Source: Eledone cirrhosa
Taxonomy: Eukaryota
Direction: 5' to 3'
DNA length: 64,000 nucleotides
NCBI GenBank assembly: GCA_964016885.1
Contig: CAXHJY010001167.1
Location: 1-64,000, forward strand
In this document: in pieces, positions 24,373-58,420 of the stretch
How positions within the stretch are numbered: the first letter of the stretch is position 1
Layout: every line of letters starts with the position of its first letter
The notes under the pieces: model-generated
Told to the model about the DNA's origin: nothing
Seen by the model: only the letters and a program-made list of their open reading frames with translations
The model's database searches: none
Program-made: the position numbers and the translations under genes

Positions 24373-24527
24373 ACCGGTAGAAATCGTTGGAACATCCTGT
24401 GTCACTCGGTTCGTAGCGTACTGCAACTATTCTAAATAATTTGTTATATATTTGGAGCTGTTTGTGTGAGTAATTATATATATATATATATTGTTATACT
24501 TGGAGGGGGTAGGGGTCATATTGTTGT

Positions 24528-24722
24528 AATAATTGTTTCTACTTTTGGCACAAGGCCAGCAAATTACCCAGTACATTACTGGTACTTTATTTTATCGACC
24601 CCGTAAGGATGAAAGGCAAAGTTGACCTCGGCGGGATTTGAACTCAGAATGGAAAGGGCCGTAATTATATGCGTCAAAGCATGACGCCCGACCCTCTACC
24701 GATACTGCCAATTCACCGCCCT
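24528..24722 (-). mobile_element. tRNA-derived SINE, family 1 (full length)
   Basis: Match to the shared family sequence. Confidence 0.9.
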
Positions 24723-25032
24723 ATTATTGCCAGAAATAATAACAGAACACACTCACTGTTTGGTTGGTTTTCGCTTCTTTATCTTTTATATCTCCACAGT
24801 TAATTCATTTGGTCAAAAATACAGATGTAATATATATATATATATAGTCTATTAAAGTTCTTTCGTTGCACATCTGCAACATCATCAGTGGTACTATTAT
24901 ATATATGCGCACATGCATGCATACACACACACATATTATATATGTATATATATATGCGCACATGCATGCATACATACACACACATATATTATATATGTAT
25001 ATATATGCGCACATGCATGCACACACACACAC

Positions 25033-25260: not shown

Positions 25261-25295
<35 letters not shown>

Positions 25296-25336
25296 ATAAT
25301 ATTAATAAATGGAAACTATCTTTATAAAACCATATT

Positions 25337-25397
25337 TATTTTATTATATATATTTCAAGGGTACCAAAATTTTGGCACGCTCTCATCAGATAAAATA
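25337..25397 (-). ncRNA. Type I hammerhead ribozyme, canonical core
   Basis: Minus strand reads TATTTTAT-CTGATGA-GAG C GTGCCAAA AT TTTGGTAC C CTT-GAAA-TATATA-TA^-ATAAAATA: 8-bp stem I, ~11-bp stem II, palindromic stem III. Confidence 0.85.
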
Positions 25398-25528
25398 CAA
25401 AAGTTTTACAGATAGTGACATATCCCAAAACAAGAACCTGTCGTTATACTCCAGAAGAAAACTTGTAGAGTGCTTCGAATCTGTTATAAATAAATTTCTT
25501 GAATAACCAACATATTAAATAACTCTTT

Positions 25529-25579
<51 letters not shown>

Positions 25580-30691: not shown

Positions 30692-31800
30692 GGCGTGTGG
30701 CTCACTGGTTAGGGTGCATGGCTCACAAGCGTAGAGTTTTGAGTTTGATTTCCAAACCGGGTGACACATAGTTTCCTTGAGCAAACTATTTTATTTCATG
30801 TTGACCTAGTCTACTGAGCAAAATACTTTATTCCACGTTGACCTAGTCTACTGAGCAAAATACTTTATTCCACGTTGACCTAGTCTATTGAGCAAAATAC
30901 TTTATTTCACGTTGACCTAGTCTACTGAGCAAAATACTTTATTTCATGTTGACCTAGTCTACTGAGCAAAATACTTTATTCCACGTTGACCTAGTCTACT
31001 GAGCAAAATACTTTATTCCACGTTGACCTAGTCTACTGAGCAAAATACTTTATTCCACGTTGACCTAGTCTACTGAGCAAAATACTTTATTCCACGTTGA
31101 CCTAGTCTACTGAGCAAAATACTTTATTCCACGTTGACCTAGTCTACTGAGCAAAATACTTTATTCCACGTTGACCTAGTCTACTGAGCAAACTACTTTA
31201 TTCCACGTTGACCTAGTCTACTGAGCAAAATACTTTATTTCACGTTGACCTAGTCTACTGAGCAAAATACTTTATTCCACGTTGACCTAGTCTACTGAGC
31301 AAAATACTTTATTCCACGTTGACCTAGTCTATTGAGCAAAATACTTTATTTCACGTTGACCTAGACTATTGAGCAAAATACTTTATTTCACGTTGACCTA
31401 GTCTACTGAGCAAAATACTTTATTCCACGTTGACCTAGTCTACTGAGCAAAATACTTTATTCCACGTTGACCTAGTCTACTGAGCAAAATACTTTATTCC
31501 ACGTTGACCTAGTCTACTGAGCAAAATACTTTATTCCACGTTGACCTAGTCTACTGAGCAAAATACTTTATTCCACGTTGACCTAGTCTACTGAGCAAAA
31601 TACTTTATTTCACGTTGCTCTAGAAAAAAAATGAATTACGAAGACACTGGTGCCAAGCTATATCGACTTTGGGTTTTTTCTTGGCCAAATTCGGTGGCGC
31701 AGAGAGGAGAATTTTGTATACATAGGTAACTGATGGTCGTCAACAAAACCCCTTCTCTAGATATGTTTCCGGGAATAGCAACCCTATAGTTAGGCAATCA
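30692..31800 (+). mobile_element. SINE family 2 copy carrying an internal tandem expansion
   Basis: Head ggcgtgtggctcactggttagggtg...gagtttgatt; body resumes after the array with gttgctc...ggtgccaagctatatcg, as in 2661-2960. Confidence 0.75.
30778..31617 (+). repeat. 37-bp minisatellite, ~22.7 copies (TGAGCAAAATACTTTATTCCACGTTGACCTAGTCTAC)
   Basis: Units start at 30778, 30815, ... 31592; head-to-tail with no spacers. Confidence 0.97.
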
Positions 31801-43303: not shown

Positions 43304-43344
43304 TAGAAAGACAGATATATACATAGATAATTGCATATATATAT

Positions 43345-44790
43345 AGTGAAAAATGGAACGGGAACAAAACAGAGAGGCAGTACGAACAAGGTTTATTAGT
43401 TTCACGCTCTTGAGAGGGGGGGCGTTTCGGGCATAAGCCCTTCTTCAGGCGAAAAGTGTGTGAGAAGAGAGTTCCGAGGGTGTGTAGGGGAGTGGTGGAC
43501 AGACAATTAGAAAGGGGGGGACGGTGGAAGGGGTACAAATAAAAATAAATATAAAAAAAATAAAAATAAAAATAAACATGAAGATAAACAAGTGGTGGAA
43601 GGGTGTGGGGCGTGTAGGGGTTGTGGCGGGTGGAGTGGGGAGAGGGAGGCGGGGTGTCCGAGCGGGGAGGGCTGAAGGTGGTGTATGTGTGTAGGTGTAC
43701 GTGTGTGTGTGTGTGTGTGTATGTGAATGTGAGAGTTGGGGGAAGAACGAGGTTCCATGTTCAGGAAAAGGTGTGCGTGTGGCGTGGGGTGTAGGTCGGT
43801 GTGTGTGTGCGCGTGTGGATAGGGAGGGGTCAGAGGGGTGGGGGAGGGGGAGAGGATTCCGGAGGCTGAGTGTGTATATATGTGGGGGTACGCACATTTA
43901 TACGTATTGTGGAGTATGTGGCGTGGTTGGAAAAAAAATGTTTGTGAGTGTATGTCCGTGGGTAAGTTCCTAAGGTAGTTCCGTAGAGGGTGTGGTGAGT
44001 TGCCGGATATTTTCCTTGTGATGGAGTTGATGGTGGGAACGATGGCCGATGTGTGTAATCCGTAGTTGTGTTGGTCGGAAGAGGGGAGTGTGGGGTTCGC
44101 GCACAACAGGAAGTAGTCAGAGTGTCAAGGCAGAAGGAGGGTAGAGGAGAATGACAGGTGGAGAGGGCTGTGTGTCTGTGTGTGCGGAGAAGTGGTCAGA
44201 GGGTCAAGGCATAGCAGCAGTAGAGGAGAATGGCAGGTGGAGAAAGTCGGTGTCAGTGTGTGCGGAGGTGCGGTGGACAGGGGGAGAGGATGGTTAGGTG
44301 TGAAAGATGGAGTGGGGAGGGGGTCGTGCGGGGGGAGGGTGTGTGTATTTGTAGAGGTGTTAGTGGGATGTCTGTGTGTGTGAGAACGGGTGTGGGTGGA
44401 GCGAGAAGAGGGAGAGAAAAGTGTGGGGGACGGTGGAGGGAGTGTAGTGTACTGGTGTGTGTGTGCGTGTTTGGATGAGTGTGTGTGGTGAAGGGGGTGT
44501 TAGTGGGTGTTAGTATACTGGTGGTAGGGTGTGTAGAGTGGGTGGTGTAAGTGGGTGTGGGTGGGTGTGTGTGTTCGTGTGCGTGGGGTTGGTGGGATGT
44601 TACTGGTATTAGTTGTGGGGTGGTGGGAGTGGATGTGTGTGTGAGGGTCAGTGGTGGTAGTAGAGTGTGTGGATAGTGTGAGTGCGTGTATATATGTACC
44701 GGTGGGCGTGTGCGTGATAGGGGGAGGGGGCAGGGGGGAAGGGGGAAATATGTTAGTATTGTTAGTTGGGGGAGGGTTGTCGGGGTGGAT
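43345..44790 (-). mobile_element. CA-rich hammerhead-bearing Penelope-like non-autonomous element, long copy (cleavage triplet mutated, 43421-43448)
   Basis: 43345-43870 is homologous to 45593-46106; CTGAAGAAGGGCTTATGCCCGAAACGCC on the minus strand; TA tracts at both ends. Confidence 0.7.
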
Positions 44791-45578: not shown

Positions 45579-45592
45579 TTATATATATATAT

Positions 45593-46103
45593 AGTAAAAA
45601 ATTGAACGGGAACAAAACAGAGAGGCAGTACGAACAAAGGTTTATTAGTTTCACGCTCTTGAGAGTGGGGTGGTGGTGGGGAACGACGTTTCGGGCATAA
45701 GCCCTTCTTCAGGTGAAAAGTGTGTGGGAAGAGAGTTCCAAGGATGTGTAGGGGAGTGGTGGAGAGACATATAGAAAAAAGGGGTGAGAGGAAACGGTAC
45801 AAATGAGATTAAATATAAAAGCATAATAAAAATAAAAATAAACATGAAGTAAAACAAGTGGGGGAAGGGTGTGGGGCGTGTAGGAGTGGTGGCGGGTGGA
45901 GTGGGGAGAGGGAGGCGGGGTGTCCGAGCGGGGAGGGCTGAAGGTGGTGTGTGTGTAGGTGTACGTGTGTGTGTGTATGTGAAAGTAAGAGTTGGGGGAA
46001 GAACGGGGTTGCATGTTCAGGAAAAGGTGTGTGTGGGGTGAGGTGTAGGTCGGTGTGTGTGTGCGTGTGTGGATGGGGAGGGGGGGGGGGGGATTCCGGA
46101 GGC

Positions 46104-46106
<3 letters not shown>
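45593..46106 (-). mobile_element. Short copy of the same hammerhead-bearing element, flanked by (TA)n
   Basis: Homology to 43345-43870. Confidence 0.72.
45683..45714 (-). ncRNA. Minimal type I hammerhead ribozyme
   Basis: Minus strand reads AC-CTGAAGA-A-GGGC TTAT GCCC-GAAAC GTC^-GT; palindromic ACGT stem III; stem I very short. Confidence 0.75.
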
Positions 46107-46141
<35 letters not shown>

Positions 46142-51503: not shown

Positions 51504-52109
51504 CCACCAAACTCTTCTTCTCTTTATGTCTATCACACAAAACTCTGTTTAATCCCCCCTCTCTATATCTACTAAAACTAAACTCTACCCCTCTCTATAT
51601 CTACCACGACACCACTTCTCTTATCCCACTCTTTACATCTAAAACTAATACACGCTCTAACTCTATATGAATATCTACACTTATCTCTCCCAATCCCCCT
51701 CTGTATATCAATCACCCCTAAAATCTCCCCCTTTCTATATCTGCCACACGGCACTCTCCCATTATCCCTCTCTGAATATCTACAACCAGAAATTCTCCCC
51801 CTCTCTATATCTACAACTTGGTACTCTCTTCCAATACCCTTCTATTTATCAATAAACATCATTCTCTCCCTCTCTCTATATCTAGCACACAACACACTCT
51901 CCCAATCCCCCCTCTCTCTCTACCATACAACAATCCCTCTCATTCTCTCTCGCTCTATCCATCACTACAAAACTCTCCCCCTCTCTACATCAACCATACA
52001 ACACTCTCTCCCAATGCTCCTCTCTATATCAATTAACATCAAACTCTCCCCCTCTCTATATCTACTACACAGAACTCTCTCCCAACTCCCGCTCTATATC
52101 AACTACCAC
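51504..52109. repeat. Degenerate CT-rich minisatellite (aactctccccctctctatatc-like), left half
   Basis: The same repeat continues at 57808-58420 after the LINE. Confidence 0.85.
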
Positions 52110-57565: not shown

Positions 57566-57807
57566 GTGAGAGAGGAGAAGAATGAGAAGAGGAAGGAAGC
57601 ACCCGCTCTTTGTGCTCCTGAAGAGGAGGGTTGCACATTTTTCGGGGGTGTGTGCGACCCATGTCAACGCTCCTCCCTATTGAGGACATCGATTGTTAAA
57701 TTTAATTTGTTAAATGTTATTTTACACGTCTTTTTAAATGTATGTAAACTCCCCCCTTTGTATTTGTCCCAATCTTTGATGCCCTGGTGGCAAATTAATA
57801 GAAATTT

Positions 57808-58420
57808 ATATCAATAACCACCAAACTCTCCCCCTCTCTGTATCTACGACACGGAACTCGCTTCCAATACCCCTCTCTATATCAATAAATATCAATCTCT
57901 CCTCCGCTCTATATCTACCACACATCACTCTCTCTCTCATTCCTTCCCACTCTATCTATCACTAACAAACTCTCCCCTCTCTATATCTATCAATACCTAT
58001 CTCTATCAATCCTCTCCCTTGATTCATTACCACCAACATCTCACCCTCTCTAAATCAACCATACAATATACACTCCCCCTCTATATCAATTAACAACAAA
58101 CTCTCCACCTCTCTATATCTACTACACAGAACTCTCTTCCAATCCCCTTCTCTATATCAATTTACACCAAACTCGCCCTCTCTATATATCTACTAAAAGA
58201 TACTCTCTTCCATTCCCCTGTTTATACTAATTATCACCAAACTCTCTCCCTCTCTATATCTTCCACACGGAACTCTCTTCCAATACCTCTCTCTATATCA
58301 ATAAATATCAATCTCTCCCCCTCTCTATATATCCAATATACAATACATTCTCCCAACCTTCCTCTCTATGTCAATTACCCACAAGCTCCCCGCTCTCTAT
58401 ATCTATATATATCTCTCCCT
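57808..58420. repeat. Degenerate CT-rich minisatellite, right half
   Basis: Same unit as 51504-52109. Confidence 0.85.

What the first reader, a model, noticed from the sequence alone, without database searches (positions are those of the whole stretch)
25293..25530. ~240-bp solo unit between two (TA)n tracts carrying a near-perfect hammerhead
Seen: canonical CTGATGA/GAAA core, 8-bp stem I, ~11-bp stem II, an AUA triplet, and a stem III that is itself a TA repeat (ATATATAT). Inference: a TA-repeat stem III could pair in trans with another copy. This is the smallest clean example of the unit and the best candidate for an assay.
Basis: partly seen in the sequence, partly recalled or inferred. 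Interest (0 to 1): 0.7.

Follow-up and report, generated by a model that had tools for sequence, protein, structure and literature searches.

The report
Head-to-head Penelope leader copy with hammerhead
This 239-base piece is two short back-to-back fragments of a Penelope-type jumping gene, one of them carrying a hammerhead self-cutting-RNA motif, and the many similar pieces in the genome likely mark where the gene's RNA starts and show it was likely copied while still uncut.

Summary
The hammerhead is real (type I, minus strand, cut site 25345/25344) and larger than reported: stem I extends to 25315-25416, and stem II covaries across sister subfamilies. The 'solo unit' is not a monomer. It is two oppositely oriented fragments of a ~3.9-kb Hydra-clade Penelope-like retroelement: a hammerhead-bearing pLTR arm and an 88-nt 'tail' arm, both 3' ends facing (TA)n. 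Outer ends are fixed; 23 of 24 look-alike copies have different inner junctions, so each likely arose separately. A 35-mer of the wider family occurs 11,420 times. In 96 sampled arms, 39 start at or just inside a TCACT initiator-like motif, none in the 65 nt before it, often with an extra G (cap-like); 86 span the cut site. So short units likely copy the capped, uncut 5' leader. pLTRs preceding an ORF ignore that wall (0 of 19), hinting at a second, circular or tandem template. Stem III is a self-pairing palindrome (known dimer design); this copy has private defects and is a poor assay pick. The scan noted similar two-armed Penelope hammerhead repeats elsewhere in this genome. Known kind; cleavage untested.

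The parts
25263..25292 (.). left (TA)n tract, target microsatellite
25293..25445 (-). arm B: 5'-truncated pseudo-LTR of the Hydra-clade element; 3' end at the first fixed end (site 1, 25293); 5' end about 17 nt inside the TCACT initiator-like motif
   Evidence: 93% to locus L057 positions 323-488 of the reference; start at reference 323, motif at 306
25315..25416 (-). extended type I hammerhead: distal stem I 25416-25403 with 25330-25315; internal loop shortened by 3 nt in this copy
   Evidence: predicted fold, coordinates, alignment, pair counts
25390..25397 (-). proximal stem I, 5' strand (pairs with 25344-25337)
   Evidence: 98.8% of cells paired in 32 copies
25383..25389 (-). CUGAUGA box
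   Evidence: CTGATGA in 232 of 279 parsed arms
25357..25382 (-). stem II: 3 bp + C.C + 7 bp, closing pair G.U
   Evidence: 4 of 10 pairs change on both sides among 32 copies
25346..25356 (-). GAAA box and the 8-nt palindrome ATATATAT (stem III; 2 bp as monomer, 8 bp between two hammerheads)
25344..25345 (-). predicted cleavage site after the AUA triplet (untested)
   Evidence: hammerhead topology; triplet ATA in 198 parsed arms
25444..25445 (.). head-to-head junction of the two arms, 2-nt TT microhomology
   Evidence: sequence against native order in L051/L057
25444..25531 (+). arm C: 88-nt 'tail'; in the parent it follows site 1 directly and runs on into the leader and the ATG; 3' end at the second fixed end (site 2)
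   Evidence: 92% to L057 reference 484-575; tail continuous with leader and ORF start in most of 30 ORF-start loci
25532..25578 (.). right (TA)n tract, target microsatellite

Best explanation
The 239-bp unit is two head-to-head fragments of a Hydra-clade Penelope-like retroelement inserted in (TA)n, likely made when the element's enzyme primed both strands of a cut microsatellite on the uncut 5' leader of its RNA. Shown: the parent is a ~3.9-kb element (RT, CxCX5C linker, C-terminal GIY-YIG-type nuclease, ~1.5-kb 3' UTR) whose pLTR holds the hammerhead, then two fixed ends about 90 nt apart (site 1 about 55 nt and site 2 about 145 nt after the cut site), then the ATG about 200 nt after the cut site. 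Shown: head-to-head pairs mostly combine one site-1 arm with one site-2 arm; short arms stop at a TCACT motif about 130 nt before the cut site; most arms span the cut site. Inferred: TCACT is the transcription start, the extra G is the copied cap, each target strand primes at one of the two internal sites, both cDNAs run toward the capped end, and their ends join by microhomology. Inferred: the hammerhead cuts poorly alone and works as a double hammerhead between the 5' and 3' pLTR copies of a partial-tandem transcript; this solo copy is a dead by-product that would not cut itself efficiently.
For: Parent and domain order: L309 is pLTR-ORF-pLTR; HTH_animal/RVT_1 clusters, lead only; 35-44% identity to four full-length RT-nuclease proteins; linker and nuclease motifs. 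Hydra features from PMC8557442 section 11. Inversion and fixed ends: (23 distinct junctions of 24; 26 of 31 classified head-to-head pairs are one tail plus one no-tail arm, p about 1e-4). Wall: of 96 arms, 26 start at -5..+5 and 13 at +6..+15 of the motif, 0 at -70..-6, 23 run at least 79 nt beyond; genome-wide 249 matches with a non-native base before the motif in one sister subfamily (40 of 40 inspected are true breaks) against 11 at a site 12 nt inside (5 of 11 true breaks); in the window's subfamily 22 of 23 such matches are breaks against 5 matches at a second CACTAT. Extra G: 42 of the first 100, 22 of 40 inspected, including plain (TA)n-G-ACTAT joins in L225, L226, L235 and L179; the parent base is C in 55 of 59 read-through arms and never G. 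Uncut template: 86 of 96 arms span the core. Papers: two internal RT start sites bracket the tail, both strands are cut and extended, and the hammerhead is not needed for insertion in vitro (PMC11167929); TCACT initiator-like motif in a rotifer pLTR (PMC3846280); untemplated G read as cap copy for L1 (PMC9341517).
Against: No RNA data: start site, cap and cleavage are inferred from DNA only. Many G cases can also be read as fold-back or microhomology: all 10 G cases in the window's own subfamily sit in a TTTG context that can fold back, and several in the sister subfamily match the other arm. The 96-arm sample is mostly sister subfamilies from the start of one contig. The +12 control pattern needs a 7-T run, which lowers its count. 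PMC11167929 found RT start sites not homologous to the target, so TA-like annealing at the two sites here is not established. No intact ORF was seen in the 15 long loci read, and Pfam gave no hit on 8 fragments. Energies are model values; the palindrome helix alone adds only 1.8 kcal/mol.
Confidence: 0.8

Rival explanations
1. The unit is a monomer of a retrozyme or SINE-like element that is transcribed, cut by its hammerhead, circularised and re-inserted as a unit.
For: Size fits metazoan retrozyme monomers of 150-450 bp (PMC7229834 passages); the outer ends recur in about 24 of the best matches; other hammerhead families in this genome are reported as tandem arrays by earlier AI notes (not checked).
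Against: The two halves are inverted relative to the parent; 23 of 24 inner junctions differ; 17 divergent, 3 convergent and 1 same-strand close pair among the first 100 exact matches; 35 head-to-head against 2 same-strand pairs in loci L088-L187; the one true short tandem seen (L306, 285 nt) lacks the hammerhead core.
Confidence: 0.04
2. The wall at TCACT is a reverse-transcriptase stop or recombination hot spot (structure, pyrimidine tract, fold-back), not the RNA's 5' end; short arms are ordinary 5'-truncated copies primed in the 3' pLTR.
For: Hairpins lie just inside the motif and fold-back joins are common there; pyrimidine-rich sequence lies upstream in several subfamilies; PMC3846280 explains head-to-head junctions by self-priming.
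Against: No breaks in the 65 nt beyond the motif although 23 arms pass through; cDNAs that reach the same sequence after crossing an ORF do not stop there (0 of 19 at the wall, 10 beyond, one of them by only 9 nt), which a sequence-intrinsic stop would not predict; plain (TA)n-G-ACTAT joins.
Confidence: 0.15
3. The hammerhead cuts efficiently as a single motif (the long stem I supplies tertiary contacts), and cut RNAs are common templates or mRNAs, for example for cap-independent translation.
For: Long, conserved stem I with an internal loop; AUA is a natural though slow triplet (PMC1636495 abstract); 5'-UTR type I hammerheads promote cap-independent translation in fungal viruses (PMC13725137 passages); 4 of 19 ORF-preceding pLTRs start within about 10 nt of the cut site against about 4 of 96 short-sample arms.
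Against: Stem III is two A-U pairs with predicted probability 0.002; closing pair of stem II is A-U or G.U in 263 of 279 arms; no clear genome-wide spike at the cut site (337 matches, 6 of 30 inspected true breaks, against 94 matches, 5 of 12 true breaks, 10 nt downstream); single Penelope hammerheads showed no cleavage in PMC4209133.
Confidence: 0.15

Closest known systems
Hydra clade of C-terminal EN+ Penelope-like elements (Craig et al. 2021, PMC8557442; sections 10 and 11, passages, and parts of the supplement tables seen), including Hydra-1_Obim
   Same: RWK-type motif (RWR here), DKT, C-terminal GIY-YIG-type nuclease without cysteines between the two boxes, CxCX5C linker, CxxC and CxH near the end, (TA)n target, type I hammerhead with short near-palindromic stem III, tandem and inverted pLTRs, tail.
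   Different: Longer (about 3.9 kb against generally under 3 kb) because of a ~1.5-kb 3' UTR; tail about 88 nt against 30-40 bp quoted for PLEs; hammerhead sequence unlike that listed for Hydra-1_Obim (compared by eye); tens of thousands of arms in several subfamilies.
Minimal hammerheads of metazoan Penelope-like elements (Cervera and de la Pena 2014, PMC4209133; parts 1-2 of 4 read)
   Same: Type I, in pLTRs, palindromic 15.2-16.2 region, long helix II, mostly dispersed single motifs and close opposite-strand pairs, dimer-dependent by design.
   Different: Closing pair of stem II is mostly A-U or G.U rather than G10.1-C11.1; stem I is long (8 bp plus a distal helix); conserved C.C mismatch in stem II; stem III is 8 nt.
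PAc, Poseidon element of Anolis (Frangieh et al. 2024, PMC11167929; parts 1-2 of 4 read)
   Same: Two internal start sites that bracket the tail; both target strands used; AT-rich target; uncut RNA is the main template.
   Different: In PAc the hammerhead overlaps the ORF start and the sites lie inside the ORF; here hammerhead and both sites lie in the 5' leader, 200 nt before the ATG, and both sites are TA-like.
Metazoan non-LTR retrozymes (PMC7229834 passages; preprint 10.64898/2026.07.22.740005 part 1 of 5)
   Same: Short, AT-rich, type I hammerhead, pLTR-related.
   Different: No head-to-tail repeats of this unit; it is an inverted composite with one hammerhead and a variable inner junction.

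Membership tests
Type I hammerhead ribozyme | CUGANGA, GAAA and NUH in type I order with stems I-III | tested here: met
   0 hits in 100 random windows
Type I hammerhead ribozyme | structure kept across relatives | tested here: met
   90.2% of cells paired against 39-57% for slid controls; 4 of 10 stem II pairs change on both sides; stem I varies mostly by G.U swaps. Sequences are related, so this is not a probability.
Type I hammerhead ribozyme | G10.1-C11.1 closing pair | tested here: not met
   G.U in this copy; A-U 136 and G.U 127 of 279 arms. Non-G-C closings also appear among published Hydra hammerheads.
Type I hammerhead ribozyme | loop I-loop II tertiary contact and self-cleavage | not testable with these tools
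   needs in vitro assay; no Rfam hammerhead model matched
EN+ Penelope-like element | single ORF, RT followed by GIY-YIG nuclease | tested here: met
   read in pieces from broken copies; 35-44% identity to four full-length proteins; alignment; no intact ORF seen
EN+ Penelope-like element | pLTRs in partial tandem and inverted arrangement, optional tail | tested here: met
   (L309)
Hydra clade | RWK motif and DKG changed to DKT | tested here: met
   RWR and DKT in L056, L310, L311 frames; relatives show RWR/RWK and DKT/DKS
Hydra clade | CxCX5C linker; no CCHH cysteines between GIY and YIG; CxxC and CxH near conserved E and N | tested here: met
   (L054, L056, L311) against the definition
Hydra clade | (TA)n insertion and canonical hammerhead | tested here: met
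   74 of 134 arms end in TA repeat, 48 of 52 tails are followed by TA
Hydra clade | placement in the Hydra branch of an RT tree | not tested
   no tree built; reference Hydra proteins were only seen in a paper supplement
Neptune clade | CCHH motif and CX2-5CxxC linker | tested here: not met
   my first guess of Neptune was dropped
Non-LTR retrozyme | head-to-tail repeats with a hammerhead in each unit | tested here: not met
   only samples of the genome's copies were read
Non-LTR retrozyme | expressed as circular RNA | not testable with these tools
   no RNA holder listed

The most novel reading that the evidence does not exclude
The genome holds a natural 5'-RACE library of a Penelope-like element that separates two templates: capped, uncut linear RNA, whose leader is copied from both target strands into tens of thousands of short head-to-head units, and a second template that runs past the start site (a circle made by double-hammerhead cutting and ligation) that yields full-length, promoter-regenerating tandems. 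The hammerhead would thus be the switch between abortive and productive transposition.
Probability: 0.3. Interest if true: 0.68.

Novelty: new member of a known kind. Interest (0 to 1): 0.42.

Why it matters
The single locus is ordinary: one decayed by-product among many thousands. Its family is useful. What Penelope hammerheads do, and how head-to-head pLTRs and tails arise, are stated open questions in the papers read (PMC8557442, PMC11167929, PMC3846280). Here the copy ends give testable coordinates: a probable start site with a cap-like G, two priming sites used one per strand, mostly uncut templates for short copies, and a different template for ORF-crossing copies. Four searches aimed at Penelope structure listed no paper showing such a genomic 5'-end wall, but the library lacks most subscription papers.

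Tried and rejected
Rfam: no hammerhead match. Fold of the 78-nt core is not unusual against shuffles (z -1.46). Pfam on 8 ORF fragments and PDB sequence search: nothing useful. RNA runs: no RNA holder listed; contigs of three runs of unknown kind were laid only for native order and variants, their depth is not a copy number. Neptune assignment: dropped. L1-style twin priming on one RNA: the window's arms happen to abut, but tail-arm starts spread from reference 435 to 513 and both arms often hold the hammerhead, so it is not the rule. Spike of 5' ends at the cut site: not shown; 24 of 30 inspected matches were small indels with the hammerhead in place; the upstream control hit a sister subfamily (4,911 matches) and was unusable; the 20 further regions were picked by letter and not counted. 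L306, a 285-nt tandem whose joint falls at the cut site, looked like a copied circle but a similar 10-nt word lies in the ORF at the joint, so it was rejected as proof. breakpoints were limited by distant references and one search used contaminated references; both were replaced, in which 2 of 96 rows (L123+, L157+) are visibly miscalled and were left in the bins. In one search, 11 of 30 loci had no anchor upstream of the leader and were not counted. crashed. Look-ups of earlier findings by sequence and by words returned nothing.

Full report
Observation. The minus strand carries a complete type I hammerhead: 8-bp stem I, CTGATGA at 25389-25383, stem II at 25382-25357, GAAA, the palindrome ATATATAT and an AUA triplet, with the predicted cut between 25345 and 25344. 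It is the only such hit in the window and none arose in 100 of 100 random windows of the same dinucleotide make-up. Rfam has no hammerhead match here. Folding a longer stretch shows that stem I continues into a distal helix, so the motif spans 25315-25416. The insert lies between (TA)n tracts at 25293-25531.

The unit is a composite. A search of the 3.0-Gb own genome gave 59 listed matches from 40 scored of 2,330 candidates. In several, the first 88 nt of the query lay next to the rest in the opposite orientation. The native order is hammerhead, site 1, 88-nt tail, site 2. The window therefore holds a hammerhead arm (25293-25445, minus) and a tail arm (25444-25531, plus), joined head to head over a 2-nt microhomology, with both 3' ends in (TA)n. 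Loose ends of contigs from three public runs of unknown kind show the native sequence before 25444. In 24 look-alike copies the outer ends recur and 23 inner junctions are distinct.

The parent. Walking upstream gave a ~3.9-kb element with a broken ORF, a ~1.5-kb AT-rich 3' UTR and the hammerhead pLTR. In most of 30 loci at the ORF start the pLTR and tail run straight into a leader and the ATG, so the tail is part of the 5' leader; the cut site lies 198-200 nt before the ATG and L309 is a whole pLTR-ORF-pLTR tandem. Pfam and PDB gave nothing; the atlas pointed to RT and HTH_animal clusters (lead only); four full-length proteins matched at 35-44%. The alignment shows a CxCX5C linker, no cysteines between the two nuclease boxes, and CxxC and CxH near the end; RWR and DKT are in the N-terminal frames. 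These are the features given for the Hydra clade, which also targets (TA)n and has canonical hammerheads (PMC8557442 section 11); an octopus member, Hydra-1_Obim, is listed with a different hammerhead (supplement). No tree was built and no intact ORF was seen in 15 long loci. The host species was not determined.

Abundance. A 36-mer of the hammerhead's 3' half has 1,797 exact matches, a 35-mer downstream of the cut site 11,420, and a further sister group 4,911; reversed controls gave 0. These are lower bounds on arms, across several subfamilies.

The hammerhead across the family. In 279 parsed arms CTGATGA occurs 232 times and GAAA 259 times; stem II closes on A-U (136) or G.U (127); the stem III segment is ATATATAT (135) or ATATGTAT (47), both self-pairing. 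In 32 aligned copies 90.2% of cells pair against 39-57% for slid controls, 4 of 10 stem II pairs change on both sides, and stem I varies by G.U swaps; the copies are related, so events are fewer than cells. Stems I and II are predicted to form, stem III as a monomer is not (probability 0.002); a double hammerhead scores -56.6 against -51.8 for two free folds and -44.0 for two monomer hammerheads. This matches the dimer design published for Penelope hammerheads, where single motifs did not cleave (PMC4209133). The window copy lacks 3 nt of the stem I loop and has a private change in stem II.

How the short units likely arise. Among loci L088-L187, 35 head-to-head pairs stand against 2 same-strand pairs, and 26 of 31 classified pairs join one tail arm to one no-tail arm (p about 1e-4). 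This fits two internal start sites that bracket the tail and use of both target strands, as shown in vitro for an Anolis element (PMC11167929). In 96 arms taken in order from one contig, 26 begin within 5 nt of a TCACT motif about 130 nt before the cut site, 13 more within 15 nt inside it, none in the 65 nt before it, and 23 run far beyond. Genome-wide, 249 matches in one sister subfamily have a non-native base right before the motif, and 40 of 40 inspected are true breaks, against 11 matches and 5 breaks 12 nt inside (that control needs a 7-T run). In the window's subfamily 22 of 23 are breaks. G precedes the motif in 42 of the first 100 and 22 of 40 inspected breaks, while read-through arms have C in 55 of 59 and never G. 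Some G cases are fold-back or microhomology, including all 10 in the window's subfamily; a few are plain (TA)n-G joins. An initiator-like TCACT was noted in a rotifer pLTR (PMC3846280 passages) and an untemplated G is read as a copied cap for L1 (PMC9341517 passages). I infer a capped start site. Since 86 of 96 arms span the hammerhead core and no spike at the cut site was shown, the templates were mostly uncut or re-ligated.

A second template. pLTRs lying directly before an ORF behave differently: 0 of 19 stop at the wall and 10 pass it (one by 9 nt only), against 39 and 23 in the short-arm sample (Fisher p 0.0002); 3-4 of the 19 start near the cut site. Copies that cross the ORF thus seem to come from an RNA that continues past the start site. 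A hammerhead-made circle, as proposed in PMC4209133, would do this, but so would read-through of tandem loci or a template jump; the data do not separate these.

Comparison and verdict. It works like, and by motif is a member of, the Hydra-clade Penelope-like elements; it is not a retrozyme monomer by the tandem criterion (PMC7229834 passages; preprint 10.64898/2026.07.22.740005 part 1, whose supplements are closed). Earlier AI notes on other pieces of this genome describe two-armed Penelope hammerhead repeats with two fixed ends; my reading was formed before that look-up and I did not check their families. The locus is a new member of a known kind. Interest rests on the family-level footprints, which make start site, template state and hammerhead role testable. 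Cleavage, cap and circles are untested.

Noticed in passing
window 43448 and 45712 (minus; within 43335-43881 and 45583-46118): Two copies, 84% alike over about 550 bp, of another repeat with a hammerhead-like core (CTGAAGA, extra A, 4-bp G-C stem II, GAAA) and a possible 6-bp stem I; stem III region differs between copies. Probably another Penelope-like family.
   Followed up: partly
window about 24847-24898 (minus): A ~55-bp fragment between TA runs with CTGATGA, extra T, a perfect 6-bp stem II and GAAA, but no stem I partner; a truncated hammerhead of an unrelated family 400 bp from the finding.
   Followed up: partly
window 26097 and 3527: Further degenerate hammerhead-like cores with weak stems.
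   Followed up: no
window 30778-31617: Tandem array of a 37-bp unit, 22.7 copies, 97% matches.
   Followed up: no
window 51671-52109 and 57807-58405: Related degenerate 70-71-bp tandem repeats at two places.
   Followed up: no
window 24527-24717 and at least seven other places (7005, 9902, 15343, 20454, 29903, 32048, 2412): A ~185-bp SINE-like repeat that also interrupts many copies of the Penelope-like element at AAT runs.
   Followed up: no
L306:1087-1549: 285-nt direct repeat made of leader, tail and ORF start, joined at the hammerhead cut site and lacking the core; circle-like, but microhomology can explain the joint.
   Followed up: partly
L057:2759-5042: A 466-bp tandem and palindromic array sits between the two long arms of one element copy; not identified.
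   Followed up: no
L281-L292: A very uniform sister subfamily (4,911 pattern matches) with a longer stem II ending in C before GAAA; looks younger and may hold intact ORFs and better assay candidates.
   Followed up: partly
L051, L054, L311 (ORF, before the linker): Asparagine-rich stretches in the ORF, recalling the N-rich inserts reported for rotifer Penelope elements (PMC3846280).
   Followed up: no
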